In this document: in pieces, positions 1-61,912 of the stretch
How the letters are laid out: every line of letters begins with the position of its first letter
Numbering within the stretch: position 1 is the stretch's first letter
Source of the DNA: Malacoraja senta
Taxonomy: Eukaryota
Length of the DNA stretch: 64,000 bases
Direction: 5' to 3'
Assembly: GCA_038087875.1 (NCBI GenBank)
Contig: CM075988.1
Location: forward strand, 14,758,001-14,822,000
Position numbers and translations under genes: made by a program
The notes under the pieces: model-generated
Told to the model about the DNA's origin: nothing
The model's input: the letters and a program-made list of their open reading frames with translations, nothing else
Database searches by the model: none

Positions 1-40
1 TTCCAATTGTCTTGGACTCACTCTGTTATGACCATGTGAA

Positions 41-131
41 GGTAGACACAAAATGCTGGAGTACCTCAGCGGGACAGGCAGCATCTCCGGAGAGGAGGAA
101 TGAGTGACGTTCTGGGTCGAGACCCTTCTTC
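41..131 (-). repeat. Penelope-derived short repeat (terminal-repeat fragment with degenerate hammerhead core)
   Basis: gtagacacaaaatgctggagta...gtgacgttctgggtcgagacccttcttca is the reverse complement of the sequence that follows the GIY-YIG remnant at 27780-28272. Confidence 0.75.
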
Positions 132-989
132 AAGGTCTATGTGAAAGTTGGTGTGCGATAAAATGCCACAGGTTAAAGGAGTCAGGCATCTTCCACGTCT
201 CAGAACAAAAAGTTCAAGAACTGCAACATAAAGACGCTTGGGGGCGTTCAACGCTTTCCCTCTCACACTCCCTTCCCCTGGTGAGATCACAGATGTATTT
301 GTCCTTGTCATTTGTTGTGGCATTCTTCCACGAGGTGTCCAAGACCAGGTCAAAGATTTGACAAGGTCAGCACTAGAACGAACTTCACAAAGGTTCAACA
401 GCTGTTCAAGATGACACCAGTTGTCACCCTGACTGGTCATTGTTGCTGCATGTCACAGCTCTTCAGGCTGTGAAGGAGAAGAGCAAACTGAATAACTAAA
501 GCAAACAGAATGTTATACTTAACCCAAGATTCACTTGCTGGCTGCCATGGAGATCAACAATAGTTTTTACACCCATGAAGCAAGGCAATTATTTTCTTGC
601 AATGCATTCTCTCGCACGTTGAAGCACAGAACTGTCCCAGTTCCTGTCTTAAACTATCGCTTGCCTGACAGGCTGCATCACTTTGACCAAAGTGTAATCA
701 GTATTGACTCTGTGGCTGCAAGTTTCAACCATTAAACAAAGGTCTCCTTTTGCCTCAAACTCTGGCCGTCACATGTACCCTTGTAAAGTGCACTGTTAGC
801 GCTGGCTCATTAGTTGCAAATGTCAGTGTGCGCTCTGCAGCTGTCCCGATTTGCAATTATAAGCCAGTTATTTGGACTGTATGTTAATTCTACATGTCAT
901 AGAATTAGCACTTCAACAATTCCTGCAGAAAGACCATTACACCAAGTACAGATTTCATACTTGAAAAGGAGTTTTGTAAAGAATCACTC

Positions 990-9909: not shown

Positions 9910-10020
9910 AAGATAGACACAAAATGCTGGGGTAACTCAGCGGGACAGGCAGCATCTCTGGAGAGAAGGAATGGGTGACGTTCGGGTCGAGACCCTTCTT
10001 CAGACTCCCTTCTCCGACTC
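9910..10020 (-). mobile_element. Penelope-derived short element with 14-bp TSD (1 mismatch)
   Basis: agcaatgacgatca (9896-9909) and agcaatgatgatca (10021-10034). Minus strand reads agtCTGAAGAagggtctcgacccGAAcgtc. Confidence 0.8.
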
Positions 10021-13702: not shown

Positions 13703-16700
13703 ATGGCCTCTTCTGCCCGTAAGCCCGATGCGCTCGTTTTCGATTTCGACATCGCCCTTCGATGGGACATATTCAAACGCGACTTTGAACACTATTTCAC
13801 GATTGCCCATCCTGGCGCCACCGACGCTCTCAAAGCCTCGCTGCTTCTCAACTTGGCTGGTCCCAACGCCTTGACTCGCTCGGACTTCTTCGTCTACGCT
13901 CCTGGAGAATCAGCTCGGGACCCGGCATGTCTGTTGGCTAAGTTTGACGCTATTTGTGACATTCCTACTAATTGTATTTTAGAACGTTTTAAACTGTTCG
14001 CGCGGCGTCAGCTCCCTGGGGAATCGGCTGAGAACTATGTCATTGCGCTGCGGGACCTGGGCAGGCGCTGCCGCCTCGAGACGTGGACCCCCGATAATGT
14101 CATCAGGGACCTACTGGTTTACGGTCTCCGTGATGAGAAGCTCAGGTCCGAACTACTTCGCAAGCCGGATCTGACCTTGGCCGATGCAATGCACGCTACT
14201 CGCTTAGCCGACGCTGTTTCCGCGGCGGCGCCGCCGGCTGAACAGGCGATCAACTTTGCCAGCACTCCTAGCTATCCCATGAATGCACCCCAGTCGCGAC
14301 CCCCGGTGTCGCTCGCTGCTCGAGGGGGACGCGCCCCGGGGTTCGGTGGTGCCACAAGGGGAGACACCCAGCAAAGGTGCCCTAATTGCAACTTCACATC
14401 TCATCAGTTCAATGTGTGCCCTGCGCTGGGAAAGTACTGCAAATCCTGTAATAAGTTGAACCATTTTGCTGCAGCCTGTCGTTCCCGTGGGAAGCCTGTC
14501 GCTGCTCGAAGGCAAAATTTAAACAACCTTCTACAGTCGGATAATGATCTCAGCTCCCAGCACTATTCCGATGAACATTCTGTTCCTACATCCAACTCCT
14601 CTCAGGCAGAAACCAGCTTGTTTACTGTGGTGAACGCACCTGCTATGATAACGGATCCTTCTGTGCAAGTCACTGTGAACAACTCGACCTTCACGGCCAA
14701 AATCGACACTGGGGCGGTTACCAATGTTATGTCAACATCTCTTTTCAACCAGATAAGGACTAATGAGAAGATATTTTCTCAGAGCTCAAATCTGCATGCC
14801 TACGGTGGGGAGATCCTTACTCCTGTGGGCAAGGCCACACTACACTGTAAGATACTGAAGGCCACTCGGCCCCTCACCTTCTTTCTCCTCAATCGAAGTT
14901 GCGTTCCCCTGCTGGGGATCCAGGCATGCCAGGAAATGGGACTGGTGTCCTTCCACCGGGACATCCACCACGTGGCCGAGTATCCTGACCGCTTTGATGA
15001 TAAGCTAGGCAAACTACCCTGCAGCTACAAGATTGAAGTGGACCATAAGATCGTTCCTGTGGTCCATGCTCCTCACCGTATTTCCTTCGCCATGAGGGAC
15101 AAAGTGGAGGCGACCCTACACAGTATGGTACAAATGGGCGTCCTAAAGGCGGTCGTCGAGCCCACCAGCTGGGTCTCTTCCATGGTTGTTGCTGCTAAAA
15201 AGGACATGAGTGAGATACGCATCTGCATCAACCCCAGAGACCTCAACCTGGCCATTCGGCGCCCTCACTACCCTATGAGAACGGTGGAAGACGTCGCTGC
15301 ACGGGTTGGTCCAGCAACGGTCTTTTCGGTTCTCGATGCCAAGAGTTCATTCTGGCAGATACCACTGGACGAGCGGTCGTCCATTTTGACAACCTTCGCC
15401 ACCCCCTACGGAAGGTTTCGGTTCCTCCGAATGCCCTTCGGAATCAACTCTGCCAGCGAGGTATTCCAGCGAACCATGGAACAGTTGTTTTCAGATCTGC
15501 CTTGCGCCATAATTGTTGACGACATCCTCGTTTACGGTAAGGATGTTGCCGAACACGATGTCAACCTCCGCCTGATCCTGGACCGGGCCAGGCAAATCAA
15601 CTTGAAACTGAACCCCAAGAAGTGCCGATTCCGCGTCTCGGAGGTCACCTATGTTGGACACGTATTCACCGCTGAGGGGCTGAAGCCTGACCCGCAGAAA
15701 ACGACTGCCATCTCAGGTATGCCTCCTCCTATTAACGTGGCAGGCCTGCAACGCTTTCTCGGCTTGGTAAACTACCTGGGGAAGTTCATCCCCGACCTAA
15801 GCGAGCTCAGCGCTCCCCTGAGGGATCTGATCAAAAAGGACACTTCCTGGCTTTGGTTACCCAATCATCAGAAGGCATTTGACATTCTTAAGTCTAAACT
15901 GATCAGCACACCCACGCTCAAGTTCTTTGACCTGCGGCATCCCATTGTCCTCACCTGCGACGCCTCTCAATTCGGACTCGGTGCCGCCTGCCTCCAGGTC
16001 CATGACGGCCTGCAGATGCCTGTCTCATTCGCGTCCCGCACCATGACCGCCACCGAACAGCACTACGCGCAGATTGAGAAGGAGCTACTGGCCGTGCTGT
16101 TTGCCTGCTCCAAATTCCGGGACTACATCGTGGGCAACACTTTCACCGTTGAAACTGACCATCAACCACTTGTTACCATCCTCAACAAACCGATCCATGT
16201 GGCCTCATCACGTCTGCAGCGCATGCTGCTGCAGCTCCAGCGTTTCACGTTCACGGTGGTTTATCGTAAGGGGAAGGACATGTTCGTAGCCGACACGTTG
16301 TCTCGCGCCCCGCTGACGTCCACTGCTCGCCACCAATACGAAACGTCCGAGTTACTAGTACTACGATTGAACTTCGTCCCCTCGCCACAGATGAAATCCC
16401 TGGTTGAACACACTACCAACGACCCTGCCCTGCAACAGCTGTCTGCCGTCATCCGGCAGGGCTGGCCTGACCGTCGCTCGGCACTGCCGGCTGGAGCCGT
16501 GCCCTACTTCCTGATTCGGGACGAGCTCGTATTGCACGACGGCGTGGTGGTGAAGGGTCACAAAGTGGTCGTGCCCGCGGCGCTGCACGACCACTATTTT
16601 CAGGTCGCACACCGCGGTCACACTGGGGCCGAAGCCACTTTGTCTCTCGCCAAGGCACAGTTCTATTGGCCGGATATGGCAAAGTACATCCGGGAGAGGG

Positions 16701-17854
16701 TCTCATCGTGTTCCACCTGCAACAGCCGCGCCCCCCATCAGCAGCGTCAGCCGCTTCTACAGCAGCCCGCGCCCGGACTGCCCTGGATGGCGCTCGCCAC
16801 AGACATTTTCGAGTGGCGGGGCAAACATTTCCTGGTACTCGTTGACTTCTACTCCAGCTGGTTTGCGGTTGACCGGCTGCCTTCCGTGACCTCTTCGGCC
16901 GTCATCGACAGGTTGGACCCTCACTTTAGCACTTTTGGCCCCCCGGCGAGCCTGCAGTCGGACAATGGCAGCCAGTTCACGAGCTCCGAGTTTAAAGCGT
17001 TCGCTTCCAGATGGAACTTTCGCCATTTCACAAGCAGCCCGGAGTACCCGCAAAGCAACGGTTTGGCCGAGCGCGCGGTACGCAGTGCTAAGCACCTGTT
17101 GGAACAGTGTGGTGGCATTAACTCCGACTTCCACCTGGCCCTCCTCAGCCTTCGGAACATCTCCCGCGACCCTGCCATGGGTTCACCTGCTCAGCGGCTC
17201 CTGTCTCGCGCTACCAGGCTCCCACTCCCGGTGGCCCAGCGATCCCTCATACCCTCGGTCCTTCCACCTGCGGCGGTTCAGAAACGGATTGCCTTCAGGC
17301 AAGACGTCCAAAAGCGGTCCCATGACAGGTCCTGCCACCCGCTGCCGCCCCTCTTCCCCGGTCAAGTAGTCCGTATGCAGACCACTCCCGGTCACTCCAA
17401 GCTCGCTACTGTCGTCGGCTCTGCGGGGTCGCCCAGGTCCTATTTCGTCGACTACGCTGGGACCATTTACCGACGGTCTCGCCAGCACCTTCGGCTCGTC
17501 CACGAGCCGCGTCCTCCTCCCGCCGATCCCTTTGCTCCCCCGCTGCCTGTTTCCCGTCCGGCCGTTGCCCTGCCCGTGATTCCCTGCATGCCTCGCTCTG
17601 CTCCTCCTTCGCCCCCTCCGCTCCAACACACTCCGACTAGTCCTCGGACGCCTCCCCGCGCTCCCCCCGGTCCCGGCCCCGCATCCCCTCCGGTTTCGGT
17701 GCCGCGATCTCTTCCGTTTCCTCCCGTTTCTCCCTTTCAGGTTCGTCTGTCCCCGCTGGTGCCTCTTCCTCCTCCAGGAAGGGTGGATGGCGAGACGCGA
17801 ACCCGGGCGGGACGTCTGGTCAAACCGCCTGACCGCTATGGCGATGTTGCCTAG
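13703..17854 (+). CDS. Gag-Pol polyprotein (Gag with two Cys/His knuckles, protease, RT, RNase H, integrase), 1383 aa from first ATG
   Basis: Zn knuckles CPNCNFTSH..CKSCNKLNHFAAAC; protease IDTGA; RT LDAKSSFWQ/RMPFG/IVDD; RNase H CDAS/EKELLAV/TDHQPL/ADTLSR; integrase HRGH..CSTC, TDIF/SDNG/NGLAER; Pro-rich tail ending RTRAGRLVKPPDRY. Confidence 0.95.
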   Translation: MASSARKPDALVFDFDIALRWDIFKRDFEHYFTIAHPGATDALKASLLLNLAGPNALTRSDFFVYAPGESARDPACLLAKFDAICDIPTNCILERFKLFARRQLPGESAENYVIALRDLGRRCRLETWTPDNVIRDLLVYGLRDEKLRSELLRKPDLTLADAMHATRLADAVSAAAPPAEQAINFASTPSYPMNAPQSRPPVSLAARGGRAPGFGGATRGDTQQRCPNCNFTSHQFNVCPALGKYCKSCNKLNHFAAACRSRGKPVAARRQNLNNLLQSDNDLSSQHYSDEHSVPTSNSSQAETSLFTVVNAPAMITDPSVQVTVNNSTFTAKIDTGAVTNVMSTSLFNQIRTNEKIFSQSSNLHAYGGEILTPVGKATLHCKILKATRPLTFFLLNRSCVPLLGIQACQEMGLVSFHRDIHHVAEYPDRFDDKLGKLPCSYKIEVDHKIVPVVHAPHRISFAMRDKVEATLHSMVQMGVLKAVVEPTSWVSSMVVAAKKDMSEIRICINPRDLNLAIRRPHYPMRTVEDVAARVGPATVFSVLDAKSSFWQIPLDERSSILTTFATPYGRFRFLRMPFGINSASEVFQRTMEQLFSDLPCAIIVDDILVYGKDVAEHDVNLRLILDRARQINLKLNPKKCRFRVSEVTYVGHVFTAEGLKPDPQKTTAISGMPPPINVAGLQRFLGLVNYLGKFIPDLSELSAPLRDLIKKDTSWLWLPNHQKAFDILKSKLISTPTLKFFDLRHPIVLTCDASQFGLGAACLQVHDGLQMPVSFASRTMTATEQHYAQIEKELLAVLFACSKFRDYIVGNTFTVETDHQPLVTILNKPIHVASSRLQRMLLQLQRFTFTVVYRKGKDMFVADTLSRAPLTSTARHQYETSELLVLRLNFVPSPQMKSLVEHTTNDPALQQLSAVIRQGWPDRRSALPAGAVPYFLIRDELVLHDGVVVKGHKVVVPAALHDHYFQVAHRGHTGAEATLSLAKAQFYWPDMAKYIRERVSSCSTCNSRAPHQQRQPLLQQPAPGLPWMALATDIFEWRGKHFLVLVDFYSSWFAVDRLPSVTSSAVIDRLDPHFSTFGPPASLQSDNGSQFTSSEFKAFASRWNFRHFTSSPEYPQSNGLAERAVRSAKHLLEQCGGINSDFHLALLSLRNISRDPAMGSPAQRLLSRATRLPLPVAQRSLIPSVLPPAAVQKRIAFRQDVQKRSHDRSCHPLPPLFPGQVVRMQTTPGHSKLATVVGSAGSPRSYFVDYAGTIYRRSRQHLRLVHEPRPPPADPFAPPLPVSRPAVALPVIPCMPRSAPPSPPPLQHTPTSPRTPPRAPPGPGPASPPVSVPRSLPFPPVSPFQVRLSPLVPLPPPGRVDGETRTRAGRLVKPPDRYGDVA

Positions 17855-18340: not shown

Positions 18341-18470
18341 TCTGAAGAAGGGTTCTGACCCAAAATGTCACATGTTCCTTTTCTTCAGATATGCTGCCTG
18401 TCCCATTGAGTTACTCCAGCATTTTGTGTATATCTTCAGTATAAAGCAGTATCTGCAGTTCCTTCCCACA
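18341..18470 (+). repeat. Penelope-derived short repeat
   Basis: ctgaagaagggttctgacccaaaatgtcac...gagttactccagcattttgtg. Confidence 0.7.
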
Positions 18471-19676
18471 CATTCAATGACTTCAAGAGTAGACTGCAAG
18501 CTCCCAATTGGCTCTTCTAACTCTCAGTGGGGGAAACATGGCCTGTGCATACCACAAATCCAGTGCCAATAAACCAGATCAGACCAGAGGACATTCTTAG
18601 CAACTTAATTTTCAATAACAGAAGTAACCAGTACAGTCAGTGCTGGAGATAAACAGAGCTCTTTGGCCTCCTCCAAAAAAGGAGTGATATCTCTGCCTCC
18701 AGTTAGATCGTCTCAAAGCAAGGACCATGATCATAAGAAGGAATCAACTGTTCTACATTGAGGCAATTGAGAGAAGAAATGTCTTTGCTCGGCGAGCGAG
18801 TGGAATCTTCAGGGTTCTCTATTCAAGGGGGCTTTGGAGAGTCTGTTACTTATGTGAAACATAGAAAGGGAGAGTTTTATATATTAAGGAAATCTCACGT
18901 TAGTGAGATGAATGGTCAGCCCTGATATTATTGAATACTAGGGCAGACATGAAGAACTGAATGGCGAGCTGCCAGTTTTATTTCTCATTTCCACTTTAAT
19001 CATTGGAACCTTCATGTGCATTGATTATGGAGTCTGACTTTCTGTCAATTAGCAGCCAAAGGCTTACTGCCCCCATGTCAGCAGAACTGGTTGAGAATCC
19101 TTGCATTCAGGAGTGAGTTAAGTGGAAGATTTGCATCTCATTTGTGGAATTGCTTATGTACCAACAATTACCAGGTGCATTTGTAAATACAACTCAACTA
19201 AAAGGGTACATATTCTGGGCTTTGCAGCAATGACTCTGGTTGTGTGATGAATGCCACCTCTCCTTCGATTTTTCACACAGCGATGCATCAATCCTCACGT
19301 TTGTTTCTCACCCGACCCGAGTTGAAACAAGCATACAGAGTTTTAATTTGATAGATTAAATGGCAATTAAGGCAATTTATTTATTTTACCAACCATTTGT
19401 AATGTTCCCCAAGAATCCTCAGATGGGAGGCAGAGACTAATAAGAACACACATCTCCATTTTTATGAGCGCATTTAACATTTATTCTCAAGGAATACAAC
19501 ATAATTGAATATATTTAGTGTCCATCATAATTTTTTGAAACACACTGGAGGCATTCTGTCTGTGTATTAATAATTGTTGAACACAGTGGATTAATGGCAA
19601 TTGAGTATTGAAAAAAAAATTGACTGGGGAAAAAGGAAGCTGTTTGGAATTGTAAAGCAGACCTGACAGTTGAAAC

Positions 19677-19743
19677 AGCTGGAGAAACTCAGCGGGTGAG
19701 GCAGCATCTATGGAGCGAAGGAAATAGGCAACGTTTCGGGTCG
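19677..19743 (-). repeat. Penelope-derived fragment abutting the CR1 5' end
   Basis: gctggagaaactcagcgggtgaggcagcatct...aacgtttcgggtcg. Confidence 0.7.
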
Positions 19744-19753
19744 CATATCACAT

Positions 19754-22314
19754 TGTAGCCCGGATGTAGGGTGTAAGTTGCAGCAGGAGTTAAAACTGGC
19801 ATGTAACAAAGGTAATGCCACTGTGGTGATGGGGGATGTCAATATGCAGGTAGACTGGGAAAACCAGGTTGGTTCAGGACCCCAAGAAAGAGAGTTTGTA
19901 GAGTGCCTCCGAGATGGATTCTTAGAGCAGCTTGTAATGGAGCCGACCAGAGAAAAGGCAATTCTGGATTTAGTGTTGTCCAATGAACCAGATATGATAA
20001 GAGAACTCGAGGTAAAGGAACCGCTTGGAGGTAGTGATCATAATATGATTAGTTTTAACCTGCAATTTGAGAAGGAGAACGTTAAATCGGAAGTGGCAGT
20101 GATGCAGTTGAACAAAGGGGACTATGAAGGCATGAGAGGGGAGCTGGCCAAAGTAGACTGGAAAGGGATCCTAGCAGGAATGACGGTGGAACAGCAATGG
20201 CAGGAATTTCTGGGCATAATCCGGGAGACGCAGGATCATTTCATTTCAAAAAGGAAGAAAGATTCTAAGGGGAGTAGGAGGCAACCGTGGCTGACAAGAG
20301 AAGTTAGGGATAGAATAAAACTAAAAGAAAAGATGTATAACACAGCAAAGAGTAGCCGGAAGCCAGAGGATTGGGAAACTTTCATAGGACAACAGAAGGA
20401 AACAAAACGGGCAATACGGGCTGAAAAGATGAAGTACGAGGGGAAGCCAGGAATATAAAGGACAGTAAAAGCTTCTTTAGATATGTTAAGGGAAAAAGAG
20501 TAGCAAAGTCAAATGTGGGTCCCTTGAAGGCAGACACGGGTGAAATTATTATGGGCAACAAGGAAATGGCGGAAGAGTTGAATAGGTACTTCGGATCTGT
20601 CTTCACTAAGGATGACACAAACAATCTCCCAGATGTACTGGAGGACAGAGGATCTAAGGGGGTAGTGGAACTGAAAGAAATTTTCATTAGGCGAGAAATA
20701 GTATTGGGTAGACTAATGGGACTGAAGGATGATAAATCCCCTGGGCCTGATGGTCTGCATCCCAGGGTCCTCAGGGAGGTGGCTCTAGAAATAGTGGATG
20801 CATTGGTGATCATTTTCCAATGTTCAATAGATTCAGGATCAGTTCCTGTGGATTGGAGGATAGCTAATGTTATCCCACTTTTCAAGAAAGGAGCGAGAGA
20901 GAAAACGGGGAATTACAGACCAGTTAGTCTGACCGGTGGTGGGAAAGATGCTGGAGTCAATTATTAAAGAGGTAATAATGGGGCATTTGGATAGCAGTAA
21001 AAGGATTAGTCCAAGTCAACATGGATTTATGAAAGGGAAATCATGCTTGACTAATCTTCTGGAATTTTTTGAGGATGTGACAAGTAAAATGGATGAAGGG
21101 GTGCCAGTGGATGTAGTGTATCTAGACTTTCAGAAAGCCTTTGATAAGGTCCCGCACGGGGAACTGGTGACTAAAATCAGAGCACATGGTATTGGGGGTA
21201 GGGTGTTGACATGGATAGAAAATTGGTTGGCAGACCGGAAGCAAAGAGTAGGAGTGAACGGGTCCTTTTCAGAATGGCAGGCAGTGGCGAGTGGAGTGCC
21301 GCAAGGCTCGGTGTTGGGGCCGCAACTGATTACCATATATATTAATGATTTGGAAGAGGGAATTAGGAGCAACACTAGCAAGTTTGCAGATGACACAAAG
21401 CTGGGTGGCAGTGTGAACTGTGAAGAGGATGTTAGGAGGTTGCAGGGTGACCTGGACAGGTTGAGTGAGTGGGCAGATGCGTGGCAGATGCAGTATAATA
21501 TAGATAAATGTGAGCTTATCTACTTTGGCAGCAAAAACAAGGGGGCAGATTATTATCTCAATGGAGTTAGGTTAGGTAAGGGGGAGGTACAGCGAAACCT
21601 GGGTGTCCTTGTACACTGGTCACTGAAAGTTGGCGTGCAGGTACAGCAGGCAGTGAAGAAAGCTAATGGAATGTTGGCCTTCATAACAAGAGGATTTCAG
21701 TATAGGAGTAAAGAGGTTCTTCTGCAGTTGTATAGGGCTCTGGTGAGACCACATCTGGGGTATTGCGTACAGTTTTGGTCTCCTAATTTGAGGAAGGACA
21801 TCCTTGTGATTGAGGCAGTGCAGCGTAGGTTCACGAGATTGATCCCTGGGATGGCGGGACTGTCATATGAGGAAAGATTGAAAAGACTAGGCTTGTATTT
21901 ACTGGAGTTTAGAAAGATGAGGGGGTCGATCTTATAGAAACATATAAAATTATAAAAGGACTGGACAAGCTACAGTAGATGCAGGAAAAATGTTCCCAAT
22001 GTTGGGCGAGTCCAGAACCAGGGGCCACAGTCTTAGAATAAAGGGGAGGTCATTTAAGACTGAGGTGACAAAAAACGTTTTCACCCAGAGAGTTGTGAAT
22101 TTATGGAATTCCCTGCCACAGAGGGCAGTGGAGGCCAAATCACTGGATGGATTTAAGAGAGAGTTAGATAGAGCTCTGGGGGCTAGTGGAGTCAATGGAT
22201 ATGGGGAGAAGGCAGGCACGGGTTATTGATAGGGGACGATCAGCCATGATCACAATGAATGGCGGTGCTGGCTCGAAGGGCCGAATGGCCTCCTCCTGCA
22301 CCTATTTTCTATGT
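19754..22314 (+). mobile_element. Young 5'-truncated CR1 LINE (partial EN, RT, 3'UTR); ORF2 broken by about 3 frameshifts
   Basis: MGDVN, LDLVL, GSDHN, SPGPDGLHP, NYRPVSLT, YLDFQKAFDKV, GVPQGSVLGP, KFADDTK, RTRGHS; tail ...gaatggcctcctcctgcacctattttctatgt. Confidence 0.95.
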
Positions 22315-22351
22315 AACAATCCCAGCTCAACGCTTGACTTGCACATGTGAT

Positions 22352-22578
22352 AGAAACAAGGAACTGCAGATGTGGTTTATACCAAAGATAGACACAAAGT
22401 GCTGGAGTAACTCAGCGGGTTAGGCAGCATCTCTGGAGAACATGGATAGGTGACGATTCAGGTCGGGAACCTTCTTCAGATCAGTCTGAAGATGGATCCA
22501 AACCCAATACATCACCCATCTTTTTCACCAGAGATGCTGCCTGACCCGCTGAGTTACTCCAGCACTTTGTGTCTATCT
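22352..22578. mobile_element. Fold-back (head-to-head) Penelope-derived mini-element with perfect 14-bp TSD
   Basis: cttgcacatgtgat at 22338-22351 and 22579-22592. Inverted arms meet at cttcttcagatcagtctgaaga. Confidence 0.85.
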
Positions 22579-23735
22579 CTTGCACATGTGATGATCACTA
22601 AAAACTGGAGTTGTTGTTTGTTCTTGAGTACCAGTGGAATGCAGTATTACATATCCCATCCCAATAAAAATTAAAGTCAGGTACACAGAAAAATCTGAAA
22701 CAGTAAGTCAGACTGTCAAATGGCACTCACATTGAAGAATTATCACCATGCAACAGATACTTTTGGACTGTGTATAATATAACTGTGGCTCACTTTCAAA
22801 TTACATTATGGAGAAAGCATTATCACAGTGCCATCAATACATAAAACATGCAGTTAATGTTTTGACAGCATTACAGCTGAGTAATGGCTAGGTTGTCTCA
22901 GTAAGCCGAAACCTTGGGCTTCTGGTGTGACCTTACTGCTATTACAGAATGTAAAATCATTCTAGTTTTGTAACCATGGGTTATTTATCTTATTCCAAGC
23001 AGAAATCTTTTCATCCAAGTTGTCATGATGCTTTGTGGCAACTTTTCATTTCAGAGCAATATTGATGAGATGGCCCAAAACCAAAGTGCAGTGTTTGCAG
23101 CACCCATGAAGCAAGCAATTACCCCAATGGTTTTAGCAGATATGACCTCCAGTGCAATGAAGCAAACTAAAATGATGTGCGTTACCAATGCTTGTAGCAT
23201 ATTCCACAATATTAAAATATTAAAAGGTTATTGGGACCCATAAGAGAACTTGATAGATTATTTATTGATTTATTTATTTTAAACCTGCATTTGCTGCAAT
23301 TCTGAAAATAGAAAATGTTGCAAACACTCAGCAGGTTAGGCAACTTCTGAGGAAAGAGGAACAGTTCATATTTTGGGTCTGGTAACTTTTGTCAATCCTG
23401 GATATGAAACATTAACTGTTGCTCTTTCAATTGAAGTACATGGTGAAAATATAGCCAAACATTTCTTTCATGTGGTTGCAAACTTGAAACCTACACTGTT
23501 ATCTATTAATTCACAAATTAAATTTTGGACACACGGCAAGTTAGAATGGACTAATCTATTCTATTCCCCACATTTGATTTTTGAACAATCTGTAATTATT
23601 TCCTGGGTCCATATCAATTGCCAAGTAATGTTCCTCAGTACTCTCAGGAGAGAAAAATCAAGTACTACTTCTGATGGATGCAGATTATTACTCTCATAAT
23701 CTTGGTTAGAATGTAATTGTCCAAATATTTCTTTA

Positions 23736-25535
23736 AGGGTCTGTCTCACTGCGCGAGTTGACCCACGAGTGACCCCGAGTGAAAGACTCGTGGTTGCGTA
23801 CGAGACTACAAGTTTATGATCCAGAGTTTAACCGAGTTCCCACGGGTATGTCTAAGTTTGCCGTGTACTTCTCATTTCTGCGATGTTCCAAGTTCGTCTC
23901 CCGAGTGTACCAAGTTCCTCTCCCGTTAATCTTGAGGCAACAATGTATATCGAAGTGTTGAAAAATTATCACATGTTCAAAAAATGATGTCATGCCAGCC
24001 AAAGAACGTAGAGACTATTGTGTTTGCTGCATGTGTTCTGCACAACCTGATCCATATCAGAGGTGCAGCTTCAGGATCAGCAACAGCCATGCAGGACGGT
24101 GACTTAGTGGACAGTCAAACAGGGAGAATAACACTAGGTGCATGGAGGAGTGGTACAAACGACGAGACTTTGGTGCCACTGCAGTGTTTTCGAGGTAACA
24201 CGGGGACCAACAGTGCAAAAGAGCAGAGAGACCATCTCTGCTCCTACTATAATTCAGAATTGGGCAGTGTGCCGTGGCAGGACAGCTTATTTTGAGCGGC
24301 TGCCGACCACAGGTACATCACTGCATGAGGAGAGCCCACATGCAGAAAAATCCAGTTAATTTCATGTTTAGTTTAAATCCTGCTGACTTTTCTTTGTTTA
24401 ACTTTAAGTGTGGATTTTATTTTTTATTGTGGTGTAAAAGTAATTTCATTGCATCTGTCTTTCCTTTAAAACGTGGTTATCATGCATCTGCTTATCTGAT
24501 TGTAGATCTCAAAACTTGTCATTTAGCGCATTGCATTGTATCTTTTATTGCCTGAATTTAGACGTGCATTTCTCAGCTGAATTAGTATATAGTGGAAATA
24601 CTTTTATTTGTGCTTCATTTGTTGATTTTCATGTATGAGCCCTTTTTCAGACCACTGTGTTGTTTGCTGTGGTGCTCCTTTTCTCAATATGTGCAAAAAA
24701 GCGTTTTTTATATTGAACAAGATGAATAAAGACTTTGTTTCACATTCACCGTGCTGTTTGTCTTATTTTCTGATCTACTGAGAGGGGACAATTTTAAACA
24801 TTTAAAAAGCACAGCATACGAGGCAGCTGAGTCCTTAAATCTCACAAATGATTGTGAGAATCAAGATGTGAATATATTTTGCCTTCCTCTATTTTGTGTT
24901 TTATGATGAAAGGAATATTACATTCAAGTCATGAGACTTTGTAGTGATATTAAAATGAAGACTTCCAGACATCAATTTGATCTTGATAGCAAAGAACTCT
25001 CTTTTATTGTGCAATGAAGTAAACAAAGTGAGAATCAAACGGATCAGCAAAAAGCTTTTCAACACAACACAACACAACACAAATTTATATATAAGCTTCA
25101 AGCAATTTTTTCTTTTCAACCCACTCTGTCACCTTATCAATAACTTGCTTACCTTTGTTAAGCAGAATTTGTCTTTAAAAAGTCTAAGTAACTGATATTT
25201 CTGTCCCTGATTATTGTTTCTAAAAAGAGTTCCCACGGTAGAATCACGAGTCACAAAGTTAAACGCACGGGCCACTACGTTCTTACAACGAGTTTAAAAT
25301 GTTTCAAATTTTAACCTCAAGAGTACATTTTACTCGTGGAAAAGTTCAAACATGTTTGAACTTTTGCAAGAGTTAACAAGTTTCACGTGTACCTCCCGTT
25401 AGCGCCAAGAGTCGCTAAGTTGCGTCCACGAGTTCCGACGTTCCCGCTACGTTAATTGTACGTGATTACCATGAGTTAAATTTGTTTTAAACTCGGGGTC
25501 ACTCGTGGGTCAACTCGCACAGTGAGACAGCCCTT
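23736..25535 (+). mobile_element. Internally deleted PIF/Harbinger DNA transposon
   Basis: TIRs of about 45 bp (agggtctgtctcactgcgcgagttgacccacgagtgaccccgagt and its complement at the right end). TTA TSD at 23733-23735 and 25536-25538. CpG-rich subterminal cgagt repeats and a transposase remnant. Confidence 0.92.
23984..24295 (+). pseudogene. Harbinger (DDE_Tnp_4 / HARBI1-like) transposase C-terminal remnant
   Basis: IVFAACVLHNLI...AKEQRDHLCSYYNSELGSVPWQ* matches the characteristic Harbinger transposase end. AATAAA lies downstream near 24725. Confidence 0.85.
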
Positions 25536-25823: not shown

Positions 25824-26275
25824 CTCATTTATAGTTAAAAAATCAATCGTAACATTAAATTAACAGAGGAAGAAGAGTGAAACTCATTTAAAGTTTATAC
25901 AAAGGGTTTGTAGAAAAGTCAATGCACTGCAATATATTTCAGCAAAATGTTGGCCATTCAAAATGAAGCATCAGCTAACAATGTCCAATTAGTCTCGTGT
26001 TTTTATTTTTTAAATTAAGATTTTTGCTCAACTAAAAATATACAGATTACAGAAGGACTTGCACCAGATCAAATTATATACAGATTAAATTTGTGGATGT
26101 TGGTCATCATATTGGACATTATTAACCAAGGCTTCACTTTACATGGCCAACAGTCCATTGAAATATATTGCAATGCATTGACTTTTCTACAAACCCTTGT
26201 ATGAACTTTAAATGAGGTTCACTGTCCCTCCTATGATAAATTACTGTCACTATTGACCATTTAACTATTAATGAG
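25824..26275. repeat. Long imperfect inverted repeat (arms ~165 bp, spacer ~120 bp), family unknown
   Basis: Arms at 25824-25989 and 26111-26275. The core aagggtttgtagaaaagtcaatgcactgcaatatatttca matches its partner at 39 of 40 positions. Confidence 0.85.
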
Positions 26276-26337: not shown

Positions 26338-26545
26338 AGAAGGAACTTCAGATGCTAGTTCATACCGAAGATAGACACAAAATGCTGGAGCAACTCAGTG
26401 GGTCAGGCAGCATCTCTGCAGTTCAGTTTTTGAACTGAGGGGCTCCAACATGAAACGACACCTATACTTTTTCTCCAGAGGCGCGTTACTCTAGCATTTT
26501 GTGTCTATCTTTGGTATAAACCAGCATCTGCAGTTCCTTCCTGTA
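26338..26545. repeat. Fold-back Penelope-derived mini-element (older, no clear TSD)
   Basis: aaggaacttcagatgct...gatagacacaaaatgct pairs with agcattttgtgtctatc...agcatctgcagttcctt. Confidence 0.75.
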
Positions 26546-27779
26546 CATTTTGTCTGCTCCATAGTGAAAGCTCCTCAAAATACTTTGAAGACGTTCCCTC
26601 TTCTCTCCAACAGTTCTGCAACACCTTCACTCACTGCATCTCCTCTGTGATTCCTACAGGATGAACTGACTTCATTAGCTGCAAAGTGCTTGAACATGCA
26701 GAGATCATGAAAAGGTTTCATATAAATATATAATTATTTATTCATCCAATTTTTGGTGAGATTAGCTTGCAATATTAATTATCCATCTCATAATAAGTGA
26801 GGCCCAATGAATTTGATGCTGTGTGGGAAATTGTTCACAATTTTTCCCTACCTTGTAGTTCAAGTTTTGAGGTTAATCCTGTCATTAAACATTGTTTGGA
26901 GCTTTATCTCCACAACATGAGGAAAAGAAGTAGTTTCAGAAAAAGACACACTGATTAAATTCCAGTTGACAATTCTCAGCTGCCAACATTTCTTAAATTG
27001 TACAGTTTTAGATAAGTTGAAAGCCTAACATCATTTGGCAGTCAACTTTCTATTGACTGGGCTTGTGCAAGTGATCCCACTACATACTGGGAATTAAAGC
27101 TTTCTGATCAGATATGTTCCACCCTAATTGATATCTATATTCCATTTATTTCAAAATTGACATCCTCCCGAAATTAAAGGCCACATTAGACTTTGGCTGA
27201 AGCAGCAGAGATATATAATAATTCAGAGCACGCTTGCTGCCAGCAAAAAATGAACAGAATCCTTAAGTTCATGTACTGCAAAGAACAGCCATTAACAGAA
27301 AACATGCTTGCAATAGGTAACATTCCTTTCTCAGCCACTTTCTTAATTTGATCACATTTCATCTGCGATTCCAATTTTGTAATTAATAGCGAGAGATTGT
27401 CAAGGGATTGCTAATTATTTTGGTTTCCTAGTAAAACATTCCATAAGCTGCTAATTACAATTTACTTAACCTGCTTGTTTTTGTGACTAGTTGAAATTCA
27501 TAGGCAAAAAAATGCAGAAATAATTGTGTGAATTAAAATTTCAGGATATCAGTGATGCCAAAACCACATAGAATATAGCCTGCAAATTCCAATCATATTG
27601 CATTTATAATATGTTCTAAGTATTTGTCCTTTGGGGTTTACATCATTATTTTCTGTGATAGAGGAATTTTTTTTGCAGTGATCTAGAGGCTACTATTTGG
27701 CCCATCAAGGCAATGCTCACTTGCCAAGCATAGACTTTTCGCCAAATACTTACATTTGATCTGCGGAGGCCTTTTTGAT

Positions 27780-28272
27780 CTTGCAGTTGCTGACTATTTT
27801 AACTCCTCTTCCCATTCTGATATTTCTGTCCTCGACTCCTTCTGCTGCCAGTGGGCCGCAAACAAACCAGAGGAACAGCACTTCATATTCCACTTGGGCA
27901 GCTTACAACCCAATGGTGTGAATGTTGAAATCTCCAATTTTAGGTGCCAATTAACCGACCAACCCCTTCTGCCTGCATTCCTTCCTCTAGCTTCACAATT
28001 TGTATCTCTTCTGTCTCACACCTAATCTTTTCATATCTGGCCTTGGTCCAACCATCTGCCTATCAAACCCACCCCTCAGCTGTATCCACCTATTACTTGC
28101 CAGGCTTTGCCCTGTGTCCCCCGCTCTTCCAGCTTTCTCTCCCCGCCACAATCAGTCTGAAGAAGGATCCCAATCAAAAACAACACCTATCATGTTCTCC
28201 AGAGCCTGACCAGCTGAGTTACTCCAGCACTTTGTATCTTTTTTGTTAAGCAGCATCTGTAGCTCCTTGTTC
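27780..28272 (+). mobile_element. Penelope-like element 3' end (GIY-YIG endonuclease C-terminus and terminal repeat)
   Basis: EEQHFIFHLGSLQPNGVNVEISNF is typical of the PLE GIY-YIG end. It is followed by a pyrimidine-rich UTR and cagtctgaagaagga...gagttactccagcac. Confidence 0.85.
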
Positions 28273-35878: not shown

Positions 35879-37411
35879 GAAGTGAAGCAGAGTTGGAATA
35901 AAGACAGGAAAATGTATTGGGGCAATGATCGTACCAGTAGCAATGCAATAGGAAAAGATAAAGCCTGCAGGAATATAATCAAAAATGTTACTGCGTATCA
36001 TCTAATGTGTTTTGTTTTAAAGTTGGAGATAAAGGCATTTTGTGCAGAACCTAATCTTAAAACTGAGCAAGTTTGCAAAGATGGCCTCACATCATTTCTG
36101 ATGCCTGTGGCATGGAATTCGACAAAGTAAAATGTGGGAGAGGAGCCAACTTTACCTTGGAAATCGAAGTATTGGTACAAGTAAGAAACAGCAGCTGATG
36201 CATCAAAAGACTTTAAAAAAATATTTGAATTCACCACAATTCGTGCAAAAAGATGATTCTCCAAGTCAATACCGTGGCGTTCCAGAAGGAACAACTGTGA
36301 ATTGAAGTTCAATTAATTAAGGTCGAGAGTTGAAACATCCAAAAACACATTACAAATTAACTCAACAATATGTATTGTTGTTAAACTCAACTATCTTGTT
36401 GAACAATGCAAACAGGGGAAAAAAGATGAATATGTGCTCTTCTACGACCACACAATGCAGTAGTTGAGCTCTTAGTTCGTTATCATTACCATCAGATCCT
36501 TCGTATGCCCTTTACCATATTAAAATGAAAAATTAAAAACAAATGTTTAAGCCTATTACAAACATCCAGCAGCAAGTCCTGACAATTCTTCCATCTCAAG
36601 GTTCTGCGGCTGCTCATAAACTATTTAAGCTTTGCTCTCATGGTTTATAATACCATCAGAATCGGTCAATTGAATTATTGCCTTGTAACTTACTGCCAGC
36701 CATCTATTATCCTTTATATAATTTCACTCCTGGTTGGGTTTTACAGATGGCATCTTCGCATAACAGCAGCCATTACATAGAACAAATTACAGAATTTATA
36801 TAAAATCAATGTTACATGACAACAAAAAGGTGCTGATCAAGTAACAAGCTTGGTTTCAGTAGATGGTAATGAAATTAGTTTGGCACTGCCCTGCTCACTC
36901 ACATGGTGGCTATTAAGTTAGAAATTATACCCATATGTTTATCTTATGATCAGAATGGCGAATAGTGTGCATTAGTGCCATTAGAGTAGAGATCAAAGTT
37001 AATAGAAAAACATGGACATGTTCCCGAAATTCCTCAAAAATTCTCGAGAGGTGGAAATTCGTCCCTGGTCATTAGAATTAAATTGGCACCATGACATTGC
37101 TCAACAACTGTAACCTCTAACATGCTGCTCAATTGACTTCAACCATTTCTCAAAAGACTGCCGCTATTACATCCAAGTTAGATTGCTGTAGATTGAAGTT
37201 CCACCAGCCATCAAACATAAACATCTACCGACCAAGTGCTACATGGCATCTTCCAGATGGAACAGCAAATTTGCTTGCTCGCAAGCGGTTACAAGAGATA
37301 TAACTAGACTAATTTTGATAAAGGATAGGAAAGGTTTTCCTTCCTTTTAGCCTATGTTAATCTTTCAATTATCCTCAAGTTTCTGAAATTTGGCCCCTTT
37401 GCCAACGTGAT

Positions 37412-37582
37412 ATACCGAAGGTAGACACAAAGTGCTAGAGCAACTCAGCGGGTCAGGCAGCATCTCTGGAGAACAAGGATGGGTGACGTGGTCCGAAGAA
37501 GTGTCCCGACCCAAAACCTCACCCATCCTTTTTCCCCCAGAGATGCTGTCTCACAAACAGAGTTACTCCAGCACTTTGTCCC
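37412..37582. repeat. Fold-back Penelope-derived mini-element
   Basis: gacacaaagtgctagagcaactc...ggatgggtgacg joined to gtccgaagaagtgtcccgacccaaaacctcacccatcc...gagttactccagcactttgt. Confidence 0.75.
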
Positions 37583-37858
37583 CCTTTGTGAATGGCTATG
37601 TTTTCAACATTTTAAAAATTGTCTTGTCTTCAAAAGTATTTAATTGTCTATGAAGTGTTTTGAGATGTTCTGAATAGTATTTGAAAGGTACTAATTGAGC
37701 CCAAAAGAGTAATCAATGCAAGTGGTCAGAGCTGGAATTAGATTTCTTGTGAACCTTTGCTGCAAGCAGAAACACTCAAGAACACTAGCATTTCCAAATT
37801 AAATTTCTGAACATTGTTCAAGATATCCTAGGTATAAACTATCAAAAATTTTGATTAG

Positions 37859-38044
37859 GAAAGAATCGCAGATGCTGGTTTAAATCAAAGGTAGACACAA
37901 AATGCTGGAGTAACTCCGCGGGACAGGCAGCATCTCTGGAGAGAAGGAATGTCTGAAGGATCTTGACCCAAATCGTCACCCATTCCTTCTCTCCAGAGAT
38001 GATGCCTGTCTCGGCGAGTTACTCCAGCATTTTGTGTCTACCAG
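37859..38044. mobile_element. Fold-back Penelope-derived mini-element with 13-bp TSD
   Basis: aaattttgattag at 37846-37858 and 38045-38057. Inverted arms of about 60 bp at 37890-37950 and 37982-38042. Confidence 0.85.
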
Positions 38045-39256
38045 AAATTTTGATTAGTTCTGCTGAAGGTGAAGTTTTCCACCAGCTGGCCAGACCTGTA
38101 TAATTACCCAAATAGATAATGATTACATTACCCAAGTATTTGTAAACCATTTTGTTGTACACAAAATGACTCAACTGCAATTATTCCCATTGCAATCCAA
38201 AGTAATTCACTATGTGAAACGCTTCATTAAAAGCATGAAAAGGAATTGTTTAAGTCTAAAAGTTCTCTCATTAAAATGCCTCGAGAAAATTAAAATGTCG
38301 TCATGTGTTCACCAAAATAAAATGCAGTCTTGTAAAACCAATGATAAAATAATCTACATTGCCGAGTGCACACATGATCAACTGGTCTCAAGGCTCTGCC
38401 AAGAGTACTTCATAAGAAAGGTAACAAAAGCTGAAGCTTTCAATTGATGATAAATCATTGACCTGTAAAAGGAAATGTGTACAGAGGCAAGATGATGCAC
38501 AAATGGGATGTAGCAATAATGTGCTTTTTTTTTTAAACTGGCAGACTAGCAATGAGCTGCAAGCATCAAACTTTTACTCCAAATATTAATGACCTGGGTA
38601 ATGGAATTGATGGCCACATATCCAAATGTGCCACCAAAAATACAGGTAATAAATACAGCAGTACAGATGAAAGATTACATTTACATATATTAAATGATAC
38701 CAAAATTAAAATTTACCAAAAGTAAATTCAATGATACCAAAATTACAACAAAGGTAGCTTAATTTTGGGCATCCATTTTGGAATAAAGAAATTATAGAAG
38801 TTTGAAATAGTGGAAATGCAGTAAAACTTAGAAATCTACATAGTACCAAACTACATTGGATATTTCCCGTCATCTTTAAGCTATGTATTATGACCTCTAC
38901 ATTAGTCGAAAAATCACAACAATATGAAAGTGAAGTGAATATGAAGGCAAAGAAACAATAAGCAGCATTGCAGGATTTGAAACAGTCGCTAATTAGTTCA
39001 TCATTCCTTGTACATTCTGATGCAGTGAAGCAGTGGTTACTCAATGTGCTATGTCTGCTTGTAGCATTGGTGCTGTTGTGATGCAATGTGGTGAATGCAG
39101 ATGAGTGGCTAATTCTGCATCAGTCTCATGTGATGTCAAGATGTCACATTATTACTGTATCACAAAGTTAAGTACCTAGATTGGTATGAATATTTACCAA
39201 TCGTAAAGAGGAACAGTGTATTGATCATAATCCTACTGAGCCAGGTCACTACTGTC

Positions 39257-50148: not shown

Positions 50149-50455
50149 GTAGACACAAAAAGCGGGACAGGCAGCATCTCTGGAGAGAAAGAATAGGTGA
50201 CGTTATGAGTCAAGACCCTTCTTCAGACTGATGTCAGGGGAGTGGGCGGTACAGAGATAGAATGTAGTCGGGGCAGTAAGACTGGTCGGAGAACTGGGAA
50301 AGGAGGGTATGGAGAGAGAGGGAAAGCAAGGGCTACTTGTAGTTAGAGAAGTCAGTGTTCATACCGCTGGGGTGTAAACTACCCAAGCGAAATATGCGGT
50401 GCTATTCGTCCAATTTTCGCTGGGCCTCAATCTGACAATGGAGGAGGCCAATGTT
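50149..50455 (-). mobile_element. Penelope-like element 3' end with 12-bp TSD
   Basis: Minus strand encodes a degenerate GIY-YIG end (IFRLGSLHPSGMNTDFSN). atatgttcaaag at 50137-50148 and 50462-50473. Confidence 0.8.
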
Positions 50456-51754
50456 CAAACAATATGTTCAAAGTAACCAATGCTCCACCATCATTCAATT
50501 GGGATCCAGGGCTGCTTTTGCTATCCTTCTATTTAAATTTCTAAAAACTGCCAATTAGAACCAGAGGCAAGAGTATATTTTCAAGAGTATGCACCAAGTT
50601 GTATCATGATGGTTAAGTTGTTTTCTCTTTACTTGCGGCTTATGACCTAAAAAATGACATGGCAAGAAGGTGATTGCTTTGTGTTGCAAGCTTAATCTTG
50701 TACAAAAATCAATAGCCATCACCTGAGGAAAACACACATTTGGAACATGGAAAGATGAATCCTGTTCAGGTGAAATCATTGTTGTAAAGCTGGTGCAGTG
50801 AGTATTCTAGGCCCTGTGAAATGGGTCAAAGTGCCAACATAACTCTGAGAATGTAATGTTTCTATCTTAACAGAAGATGCAGCAGGCCTCTGACCATACT
50901 CAGTAATTCCTTCTAATGAAGGATTAAGTACAGGAAACGAAGCTCCATCTGACCAACTTAAACAATATCTTGGCTAAACATGACAAAATAATCATCATAA
51001 AATGGAAGGGAATATTGAAATTAATTTCCAGATGTCTATAGTAAGCAAGGCTGTGGTTTCCTCAATTACACTATTCATTCTTCAAACATTTACTGATGTT
51101 AATCTTTCCCCCTAACAACTTAATTCCAGGCACCTACACCTATATTTGTAGGATCCATGATATTGTGAATATTTAGTGATGCCCAAAATACCATAATTAT
51201 CTTTAAGGCCCTTTTAGGCACAATATCTAGTTGAGCATACAGGAACTGTAATGAGCAGACTGCTATTTATCTAGGCCCAGGAGCAAATGCAATACACAAA
51301 GGGACAAGAAGCCATCATTAGGTAATCAAATCTCCATTAATTCATCCTCATAATTTGAATTACAACTGTGAATATATATAAACATTATTTTATCGCACTG
51401 AATAAATTATTACACCATTGTACATTAAAAACAAAATCGCTAATGTCGAACCCGAGGCTAAATCAGGGATTTTTTTCTGCACACCAACAGACAACTTGCA
51501 TTGTTGTTTAAGACATCTTCATCTGGCTGTCACACCAGTGATGAATGAATGGAGTTACGCACTGTCAAAGACACTGCATTTAAAGGGAGTCTTAATGGCA
51601 ACTGAAACATAATGAAGGCTTCATCAAAAAGCTATGCAATCATCATGGAGAGGGTTTTAATGTACATAAAGGTACATGTAGCTTATAGGCCCCCGACCTA
51701 TGTGCAGCCCATACATACGAACAAGCATTTGGGAGACCTGTAGGTTGGAGTTGG

Positions 51755-51925: not shown

Positions 51926-52199
51926 TACAGTAAAATACTGTCCACTTAACTTCATATCGACATAGGAAAAAGTCAGAGACTATTATAAATGTGTTATAAC
52001 AGTGATTTTTTTTAAAAAAGGCAAAGATTGTCAGGCAAAGTCACAAAGGGTCCTGACCTAAAATTGAAAGGTCCGGACCTACATCTATTCATGTTCTCCA
52101 GAGATGCTGCCTGACCAGCTGAGTTACTCAGGGCAAGTCAATGTTGTTTTGTGAAATAGGGAATCACGTTTGACCAGTTACTGGAGGTTTATTAAATCT

Positions 52200-54414: not shown

Positions 54415-54552
54415 AGTTGAGAAAGGAAAAAAATGAGCAAGCTAAACGAAAGATGAAATTTTATAACGAAGCACCTTCTCAGAGCAAAACAAGAAAAATC
54501 TAAGTTTAACCAGCATAAAGTAACACTCACCCCATTATGTTCTGGGGTGGTG

Positions 54553-54680
54553 ACACAAAGAACTGAAGATGCTGGATACCTATGTAGAGCACAAAGTGTT
54601 GGAGTAATTCAGAAGGTCAGGTAGCATCTCTGAAGGACATGGATTAGTGACGTTTTGGGTCGAGAACCTTTTACGGACTC
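54553..54680 (-). repeat. Penelope-derived short repeat
   Basis: cacaaagtgttggagtaattcag...gtgacgttttgggtcgagaacc. Confidence 0.65.
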
Positions 54681-61689: not shown

Positions 61690-61865
61690 GAAAACACTGG
61701 AAAAAAAACAGCAGATTGGCCAACATCTGTGGAAGGAGATGACATTTCAGGTTGGAGAACTTCATCAGAAGGAAGAACCTTTGCTTTCCACACACCTGTC
61801 TGACCTGTTGAGTGTTTCTGACATACTCTGTTTTTATTTCAAATTTCCAGCATCTGCAGTTTTTT
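61690..61865. repeat. Older Penelope-derived fold-back remnant
   Basis: Minus strand 61741-61768 reads CTGATGAagttctccaacctGAAAtgtc; right arm tgacctgttgagtgtttc...ccagcatctgcag. Confidence 0.55.
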
Positions 61866-61912
61866 CCTATTACAAATAAAAAGCACAACCCTTTAAGAAC
61901 TAATATAGGACA

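What the first reader, a model, noticed from the sequence alone, without database searches (positions are those of the whole stretch)
22338..22592. Fold-back Penelope mini-elements: self-complementary ~200-bp units centred on a hammerhead core, with long TSDs
Seen: at least four or five head-to-head units (22352-22578, 26338-26545, 37412-37582, 37859-38044, probably 61690-61865). They are made only of the terminal repeat that follows the GIY-YIG remnant at 27780-28272. In each, the inversion point lies at or within ~30 nt of the CTGAAGA..GAAACGTC core. Two have clean TSDs around the whole palindrome (14 bp cttgcacatgtgat; 13 bp aaattttgattag), so each palindrome appears to be one insertion event. 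Established: PLEs often show inverted truncated terminal repeats. Inference: a stereotyped two-ended priming mechanism, or a distinct non-autonomous family, is seeding the genome with 60-100 bp hairpins that would form dsRNA if transcribed.
Basis: partly seen in the sequence, partly recalled or inferred. Interest (0 to 1): 0.7.

Follow-up and report, generated by a model that had tools for sequence, protein, structure and literature searches.

The report
Fold-back stubs of Penelope-like retrotransposons
These short hairpin-shaped insertions are real, but they are cut-short copies of a known kind of jumping gene, laid down in the inverted-end pattern already described for it; the one less ordinary detail is that most copies stop at the same spot.

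Summary
Five of 18 loci of a batoid-type Penelope-like (PLE) terminal repeat are head-to-head pairs. U1 (14 bp) and U4 (13 bp) have exact target-site duplications (TSDs), U3 a probable one, U2 and U5 none; U5 no longer folds. (1) At least one arm of each pair carries an extension, about 30 nt in four pairs: the known PLE 'tail'. (2) Single, non-inverted copies also have 13-16 bp TSDs. (3) The inner end at the hammerhead edge is family-wide (13 of 23 pieces), not special to fold-backs. All five junctions differ and no intact ribozyme core survives, so a separate non-autonomous family is not supported. Best reading: dead-on-arrival insertions in which both nicked target strands primed reverse transcription at the two known internal start sites and the short cDNAs were joined. 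Inverted pLTR, tail, TSD, opposite-strand hammerhead pairs and siRNA from Penelope inverted repeats are all published, and this scan reported the same thing twice on other DNA. The sharp common 5' end, at an initiator-like or splice-acceptor-like TCAG/T, is the testable remainder. Expression, editing and empty sites are untested.

The parts
22338..22351 (.). U1 left TSD, 14 bp
   Evidence: exact repeat of 22579-22592
22352..22480 (-). U1 left arm, PLE repeat positions 0 to about +130, with the tail at 22352-22385
22480..22578 (+). U1 right arm, positions -5 to +95, no tail; decayed hammerhead core
22579..22592 (.). U1 right TSD
26339..26421 (-). U2 left arm, +42 to +124, with tail
26423..26548 (+). 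U2 right arm, about -4 to +133, with tail and a 15-nt internal deletion; no TSD found
27723..27944 (+). C-terminal remnant of a PLE GIY-YIG endonuclease
   Evidence: 44% over 79 aa to P0010, whose matching domain carries the GIY-YIG and CCHH motifs
27945..28272 (+). pyrimidine-rich stretch, then the terminal repeat with decayed hammerhead core (28157 on) and tail
37394..37410 (.). U3 probable left TSD (17 bp; right copy 37581-37591 lacks 6 bp)
   Evidence: probable only
37411..37489 (-). U3 left arm, +24 to +102, short part of the tail
37490..37580 (+). U3 right arm, from about -1 (to -10 through microhomology) to about +88
37846..37858 (.). U4 left TSD, 13 bp exact
37859..37951 (-). U4 left arm, +32 to +125, with tail
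37951..38044 (+). U4 right arm, -1 to +92, no tail
38045..38057 (.). U4 right TSD
61690..61769 (-). U5 left arm, older subfamily, from position 0, no tail
   Evidence: leave-out profile E 5e-5
61770..61868 (+). U5 right arm, from about +30, with tail; no TSD, no hairpin
50149..50457 (-). single non-inverted copy: second endonuclease C-terminus plus repeat ending at about +93, inside a 16-bp TSD with one mismatch (50133-50148, 50458-50473)
9910..10020 (-). single copy, -2 to +95, preceded by a duplicate of its first 14 or so bases, inside a 14-bp TSD with one mismatch (9896-9909, 10021-10034)
52044..52127 (+). single copy, +6 to +72, probable 13-bp TSD with two mismatches
38..132 (-). single copy, +2 to +95, degenerate flanking repeat (p=0.04)
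18341..18475 (+). single copy, 0 to about +133, with tail
54552..54680 (-). single copy, about -2 to +128, with tail; 7-bp flanking repeat (p=0.02)

Best explanation
The units are dead-on-arrival insertions of an endonuclease-positive Penelope-like element of skates and rays (Neptune-type by its relatives), cut down to the terminal repeat. Shown here: each is a head-to-head pair of that repeat, the outer ends fall at two preferred sites about 30-38 nt apart (about +95 and +125 to +133), and one TSD brackets the pair in U1 and U4. Inferred: the element's protein nicks both target strands 13-16 bp apart; each 3' end primes a minus-strand cDNA on the element RNA, usually one at the outer (tail) site and one at the inner site; one cDNA runs to the common stop at the 5' edge of the hammerhead, the other stops there or 24-42 nt earlier; the two cDNA ends are joined, with little or no microhomology, and filled in. 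If only one strand is primed, a single copy with the same ends and TSD results. [quoted passage not shown] The units need no function and probably do not move again.
For: Repeat directly follows an endonuclease C-terminus at two independent loci; relatives come from Hypanus, Leucoraja and Rhinoraja and show GIY-YIG, CCHH and a Cys-rich linker. 3' ends: 10 of 23 pieces at or near +95, 10 at +124 to +133, 3 elsewhere, like the two RT start sites that define the tail in PMC11167929, where the protein nicks and extends both strands and is modelled as a dimer. In U1, U3, U4 and roughly U5 each arm has sequence the other lacks, which copying one arm from the other cannot give. Arms agree at 10 of 10 subfamily sites, 1 of 24 pairings. 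Single copies have TSDs of the same size. Published structure: inverted, shorter pLTR with tail inside an 8-10 bp TSD (PMC3846280).
Against: Only five pairs, from one window. Arms are not clearly more alike overall than other pairings (rank 4 of 24; within 0.77-0.92 against mean 0.79, p=0.035). U1 arms match at 53 of 55 outer but only 27 of 39 inner positions (p=0.0006), though the inner part is more variable family-wide (57 of 428 against 41 of 681). U2 and U5 lack a TSD, and U2's right arm contains its left arm, which snap-back would also give. The in vitro work is on a Poseidon-clade element and did not show joined products.
Confidence: 0.65

Rival explanations
1. Self-priming or snap-back: one strand folds back at a small palindrome (TCAG-T-CTGA at -4 to +4, or ACGT at +24 to +27) and copies itself; the endonuclease later trims one end, leaving a one-sided tail.
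For: Proposed for PLE inverted junctions in PMC3846280; PMC8557442 ascribes the tail to endonuclease resolution. U1's junction sits on TCAG/CTGA and U3's short arm ends on ACGT. U2's right arm contains its left arm.
Against: In U3, U4 and U5 the arm that reaches further 5' is the one without the tail, so extra trimming is needed. Single copies end at the same two 3' sites with no fold-back.
Confidence: 0.15
2. Each unit is what is left of a full insertion (inverted pLTR, pLTR, ORF, pLTR) after recombination between the two direct pLTRs removed the ORF, as with solo LTRs.
For: Gives the same structure, keeps the TSD, and would put the direct arm's 5' end at a fixed place. Solo pLTRs ascribed to recombination or deletion are noted in PMC3846280. 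Could explain U1's inner and outer difference.
Against: The shared repeat is only about 100 bp; 0 of 18 loci are full length and the 2 with ORF remains are plain 5' truncations.
Confidence: 0.12
3. A non-autonomous family: the palindrome, or the -2 to +95/+125 monomer, is transcribed from its own start and mobilised in trans (retrozyme-like or SINE-like).
For: 13 of 23 pieces share a 5' end. PLE-derived retrozyme monomers and non-autonomous Chlamys elements exist.
Against: 5 of 5 fold-back junctions differ; U1-U4 carry four different subfamily states; no tandem copies; no intact core.
Confidence: 0.07
4. Independent adjacent insertions or assembly fold-back artefacts.
For: U2 and U5 have no TSD; U3's arms are only 77% alike.
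Against: 0 of 200,000 random placements give five head-to-head pairs; one TSD brackets both arms in U1 and U4; arms are diverged and asymmetric, unlike a read chimera.
Confidence: 0.01

Closest known systems
Canonical endonuclease-positive PLE insertion unit with inverted pLTR and tail (Adineta Pen2a, PMC3846280; general scheme in PMC8557442 Fig. 2 legend)
   Same: Head-to-head inverted, shorter copy of the terminal repeat; 30-40 nt tail on one end; one TSD round the whole unit; small palindromes at the junction.
   Different: Here the unit is only the two repeats, with no ORF or second direct pLTR; TSDs are 13-16 bp against 8-10 bp in Adineta.
PAc (Poseidon of Anolis) in vitro mechanism, PMC11167929
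   Same: Both strands nicked and extended; two internal RT start sites bounding the tail, 111-118 nt into an ORF that starts in hammerhead stem II, a similar distance from the core as the outer ends here.
   Different: Other clade; joined head-to-head products and a fixed 5' stop were not reported in the three of four parts of the text read.
Minimal hammerhead motifs of metazoan PLEs, PMC4209133
   Same: CUGAnGA, extra base, stem II, GAAA, palindromic ACGU; mostly single dispersed motifs; pairs on opposite strands 100-700 bp apart reported in Schistosoma; high sequence variability.
   Different: Pairs here abut; no intact core remains; that paper gives no TSDs or junctions in the parts read.
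Non-LTR retrozymes (bioRxiv 10.64898/2026.07.22.740005)
   Same: Short, non-coding, pLTR-derived, hammerhead-bearing, with dispersed monomers.
   Different: Defined by head-to-tail tandem units with complete ribozymes; none here.
L1 twin priming (recalled, no call)
   Same: Both target strands prime cDNA; inversion inside one TSD.
   Different: L1 inversions join two non-overlapping parts of one RNA; here the arms copy the same stretch, so two RNAs or two passes are needed.

Membership tests
Endonuclease-positive PLE | C-terminal GIY-YIG endonuclease with CCHH motif next to the terminal repeat | tested here: met
   Two C-terminal remnants lead into the repeat; 44% identity to P0010. The GIY/YIG and cysteine motifs are seen only in relatives, which score Pfam GIY-YIG below cut-off (E 0.001-0.008, 3 of 10 proteins). 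The remnant itself has no Pfam hit.
Endonuclease-positive PLE | Telomerase-like RT in the same ORF | tested here: inconclusive
   No RT-bearing copy in the window or among longer proteins (a weak search).
Endonuclease-positive PLE | Minimal hammerhead motif in the pLTR | tested here: met
   Core layout in alignments; 2 matches within 3 mismatches, 0 expected. Met as a decayed motif only: 0 intact cores, no Rfam hit.
Endonuclease-positive PLE | Optional 30-40 nt tail at one end | tested here: met
   10 of 23 pieces run on about 30-38 nt; one-sided in U1, U4, U5, short in U3, two-sided in U2.
Endonuclease-positive PLE | Inverted 5'-truncated copy at the 5' end, variable-length TSD round the unit | tested here: met
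   5 of 18 loci inverted; TSD clear in 2 of 5, probable in 1.
Endonuclease-positive PLE | Partial tandem forming direct pLTRs | tested here: inconclusive
   No tandem or full-length copy among 18 loci; no genome held.
Neptune clade | CX2-5CxxC linker before the endonuclease; RT phylogeny | tested here: inconclusive
   Linker present in relatives P0023 and P0010 (definition), not in the window; no RT for a tree.
Non-LTR retrozyme | At least two head-to-tail units, each with a complete hammerhead | tested here: not met
   0 tandem pairs, 0 intact cores.
Non-autonomous family (MITE- or SINE-like) | Many copies with the same ends and the same interior | tested here: not met
   5 of 5 centres differ; window only, so low power.
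Hairpin-RNA source (siRNA or A-to-I substrate) | Transcription across both arms with editing or small RNAs | not tested
   Only folding was computed.

The most novel reading that the evidence does not exclude
The common inner end marks the true 5' end of the PLE template RNA: transcripts start at an initiator-like TCAGTCT just before the hammerhead, RT starts internally 95 or 125-133 nt downstream and runs off, giving a PLE counterpart of retroviral strong-stop DNA. Fold-backs are two such cDNAs, primed from the two target strands by a dimer and possibly on two different RNAs (U1's discordant inner arms). At 5 such units in this 64-kb window, batoid genomes would hold a very large record of this intermediate, enough to settle how PLE inverted repeats and tails form.
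Probability: 0.3. Interest if true: 0.55.

Novelty: new member of a known kind. Interest (0 to 1): 0.3.

Why it matters
How PLEs make their inverted ends and tails is still called undefined in PMC8557442. These minimal insertions hold both primed ends and the join within 200 bp, so a genome-wide collection would test two-ended priming against self-priming cheaply. They are also dense (5 in 64 kb here) and four fold into 55-95 bp stems, so they could feed editing or small-RNA pathways if transcribed; Penelope inverted repeats are already reported to yield siRNA in Drosophila (PMC3681739). As objects they are ordinary PLE debris.

Tried and rejected
No whole genome is held, so no genome-wide count. 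Rfam: 0 hits. Protein atlas and word-based homologue searches gave nothing usable; the HMMER search of representatives did (its top hit P0002, 6458 aa at 29% identity, was set aside unexamined as a likely compositional match). Run search: 24 rows, no RNA holder listed, which says nothing on expression; 23 rows hold part of the stretch, but none was laid, so they are not used. Laying contigs of related organisms gave no result, so empty sites and orthologues remain open. Motif scans: 1 match in metagenome contigs, unrelated beyond the 20 bases, 0 in viral contigs. A-to-G excess as a trace of edited templates: not seen (inner A>G 9 of 131, T>C 6 of 99; outer 4 of 118, 7 of 205). Ribozyme cleavage as the cause of the short arm's end (expected +29): ends at +32 and about +30 fit, +24, +42 and 0 do not; not supported. 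TSD searches round 27723-28272 and 51810-51926 found none. Two weak profile hits (10646-10672, 45350-45371; E 0.38 and 0.08) were dropped before all counts. E-values are circular, since the profile was built from these copies; leave-out runs are. Host-gene context was not established: of 32 long frames scanned, only retroelement domains were hit. PMC4860704 was not held; Fig. S2 of PMC11167929, which maps genomic insertion ends and may bear on the 5' stop, is a picture and gave no text; the bioRxiv supplements were not seen.

Full report
Setting. The window is repeat-rich animal DNA with L1-like, Gypsy-like and other LINE remains; no genome is held for it. Proteins most like the endonuclease remnant come from skates and stingrays, so the host is probably a batoid (inference). 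Positions below count from the C of CTGAAGA as +1 and are good to a few bases.

Census. BLAST and a profile search find 25 pieces of the repeat and none in the reversed control. Two weak hits were dropped, leaving 23 pieces at 18 loci: 13 singles and 5 adjacent pairs. All 5 pairs are head-to-head; 0 of 200,000 random placements gave five. U1-U4 fold into long hairpins (z -9.6 to -19.6). U5 does not, but both its arms are recovered by a profile built without them (E 5e-5); with young copies only, just the left arm is (E 0.004). It is an old pair from an older subfamily.

TSDs. Against 583 random positions (maximum score 7.25), U1 (14 bp exact) and U4 (13 bp exact, 16 with one mismatch) are clear; U3 is borderline (p=0.03; 17 bp with a 6-bp gap); U2 and U5 have none. 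Singles have them too: 16 bp with one mismatch round 50149-50457, 14 bp with one mismatch round 9910-10020, a probable 13 bp with two mismatches round 52044-52127, and weaker repeats at two more (p=0.02 and 0.04). For the other 8 of 13 singles none was found above chance. Long TSDs belong to the family, not to the fold-backs.

Identity. The repeat follows an endonuclease C-terminus at 27723-27944 and, independently, at 50339-50452. The HMMER search returned 30 proteins; among five printed, P0023 and P0010 show the Cys-rich linker, the GIY/YIG motifs with two cysteines between them and the two histidines, which PMC8557442 gives as marks of PLE endonucleases, the linker pointing to Neptune or Nematis (passages). 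Pfam GIY-YIG hits are below cut-off, in 3 of 10 proteins scanned. No RT was found, so the clade is not proven. The repeat has the layout of the minimal PLE hammerhead (PMC4209133, parts 1-2 of 4 read), but no intact core survives and Rfam finds nothing.

Outer ends. Ten of 23 pieces end at or near +95, ten at +124 to +133, three elsewhere. The extra 30-38 nt is on one arm in U1, U4 and U5, partly in U3, and on both in U2. This is the PLE tail: optional, 30-40 bp, often at one end (PMC8557442 passages; PMC3846280, parts 1-4 of 5 read). PMC11167929 (parts 1-3 of 4 read) shows in vitro that the tail lies between two internal RT start sites and that the protein nicks and extends both strands.

Inner ends. 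In every pair one arm reaches about -5 to +2 (U2 and U3 possibly to -12 and -10 through microhomology); the other stops at 0, +42, +24, +32 or about +30. Singles stop at the same place: in all, 13 of 23 pieces start between about -5 and +6, several pinned by a TSD; four arms start at +24 to +42, three pieces at about +2 to +18, and three run further upstream. Under any steadily falling length distribution this pile-up has p of 0.0007 to 0.012, with the bin chosen after seeing the data. Caveat: the upstream stretch is low in complexity and differs between subfamilies, so unpinned ends could be alignment limits. The site reads TCAG/TCTG: it fits an initiator consensus (recalled), a splice acceptor after a pyrimidine tract (an intron ends at the hammerhead in Drosophila Penelope), and a 4-bp palindrome. 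I cannot tell these apart.

Are the arms one event? At three subfamily sites the arms agree in 10 of 10 scored cases, U1-U4 show four different states, and only the true pairing of 24 is fully concordant (sites chosen by eye and partly linked). Against this, whole-arm identity ranks the true pairing 4th of 24, and U1's arms match at 53 of 55 outer but 27 of 39 inner positions. The inner, hammerhead part is about twice as variable across 16 copies even without CpG and polymorphic columns, in line with the variability noted in PMC4209133.

Mechanism. Shown: orientation, two outer ends, a shared inner end, one TSD for two of the pairs. Inferred: staggered nicks 13-16 bp apart, a cDNA primed from each, and joining of the two cDNA ends. 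In U1, U3, U4 and roughly U5 each arm holds sequence the other lacks, which plain snap-back cannot make; U2 fits either. Self-priming, proposed in PMC3846280, and recombination between direct pLTRs remain rivals. A self-propagating family is unlikely, since all five centres differ. I put 0.85 on 'truncated PLE insertions of the known pattern' and 0.65 on that together with two-ended priming.

What is known. Inverted, shorter pLTR plus tail inside one TSD: PMC3846280, PMC8557442, PMC8969392 (passages) and PMC2377424 (passages). Opposite-strand hammerhead pairs 100-700 bp apart: PMC4209133. siRNA from Penelope inverted repeats: PMC3681739 (passages). PLE-derived retrozymes are tandem (bioRxiv 10.64898/2026.07.22.740005, part 1 of 5 and passages) and do not fit. 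PMC6431247 (passages) added nothing. Nine searches showed no paper on ORF-less fold-back pLTR pairs in cartilaginous fish or on a fixed 5' stop; the library lacks most subscription papers, and Repbase and Dfam could not be checked. Two earlier notes of this scan describe the same kind of unit in other genomes; they are unchecked notes and not independent support.

Verdict. The shared 5' stop and the arm asymmetry make the PLE mechanism testable genome-wide, which earns modest interest: 0.3.

Noticed in passing
window 25824-26275: A different inverted-repeat element just left of U2: about 450 bp with arms of roughly 165 bp, 80-84% complementary; MITE-like, family not identified.
   Followed up: no
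window 58621-58967: Another inverted repeat, 57-bp arms 95% complementary, 233 nt apart; probably a young MITE-like element.
   Followed up: no
window 13625-17854 (+): Uninterrupted 1409-codon frame with RT, RNase H and integrase domains in Gypsy order: a young LTR retrotransposon.
   Followed up: no
window 2328-7785 (-) and 19700-22310 (+): Two LINE remains: an L1-like one on the minus strand, and one that appears to end about 25 bp left of U1's TSD (CR1-like by recall).
   Followed up: no
window 34464-35878: A nearly perfect run of 472 CTC triplets; unusually long, possibly inflated in assembly.
   Followed up: no
window 10007-10020 (-): The single copy at 9910-10020 begins with a near-duplicate of its own first 14 bases, between the TSD and the element, as if synthesis reached the common 5' stop twice.
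   Followed up: partly
window 11264-11300 (+): By eye, the hammerhead part of this single copy differs from its relatives by about six A-to-G changes in 35 bases; no such excess family-wide.
   Followed up: partly
proteins P0003, P0010, P0015, P0019, P0023: Public gene models of skates and rays, among them a neuromedin-U receptor and a 'mucin-2', carry this PLE endonuclease end fused at the C-terminus; probably annotation errors, possibly exonisation.
   Followed up: no
window 9207-9280, 53299-53358, 25329-25376: Three short abutting palindromes (24-33 bp arms) unrelated to the PLE repeat.
   Followed up: no
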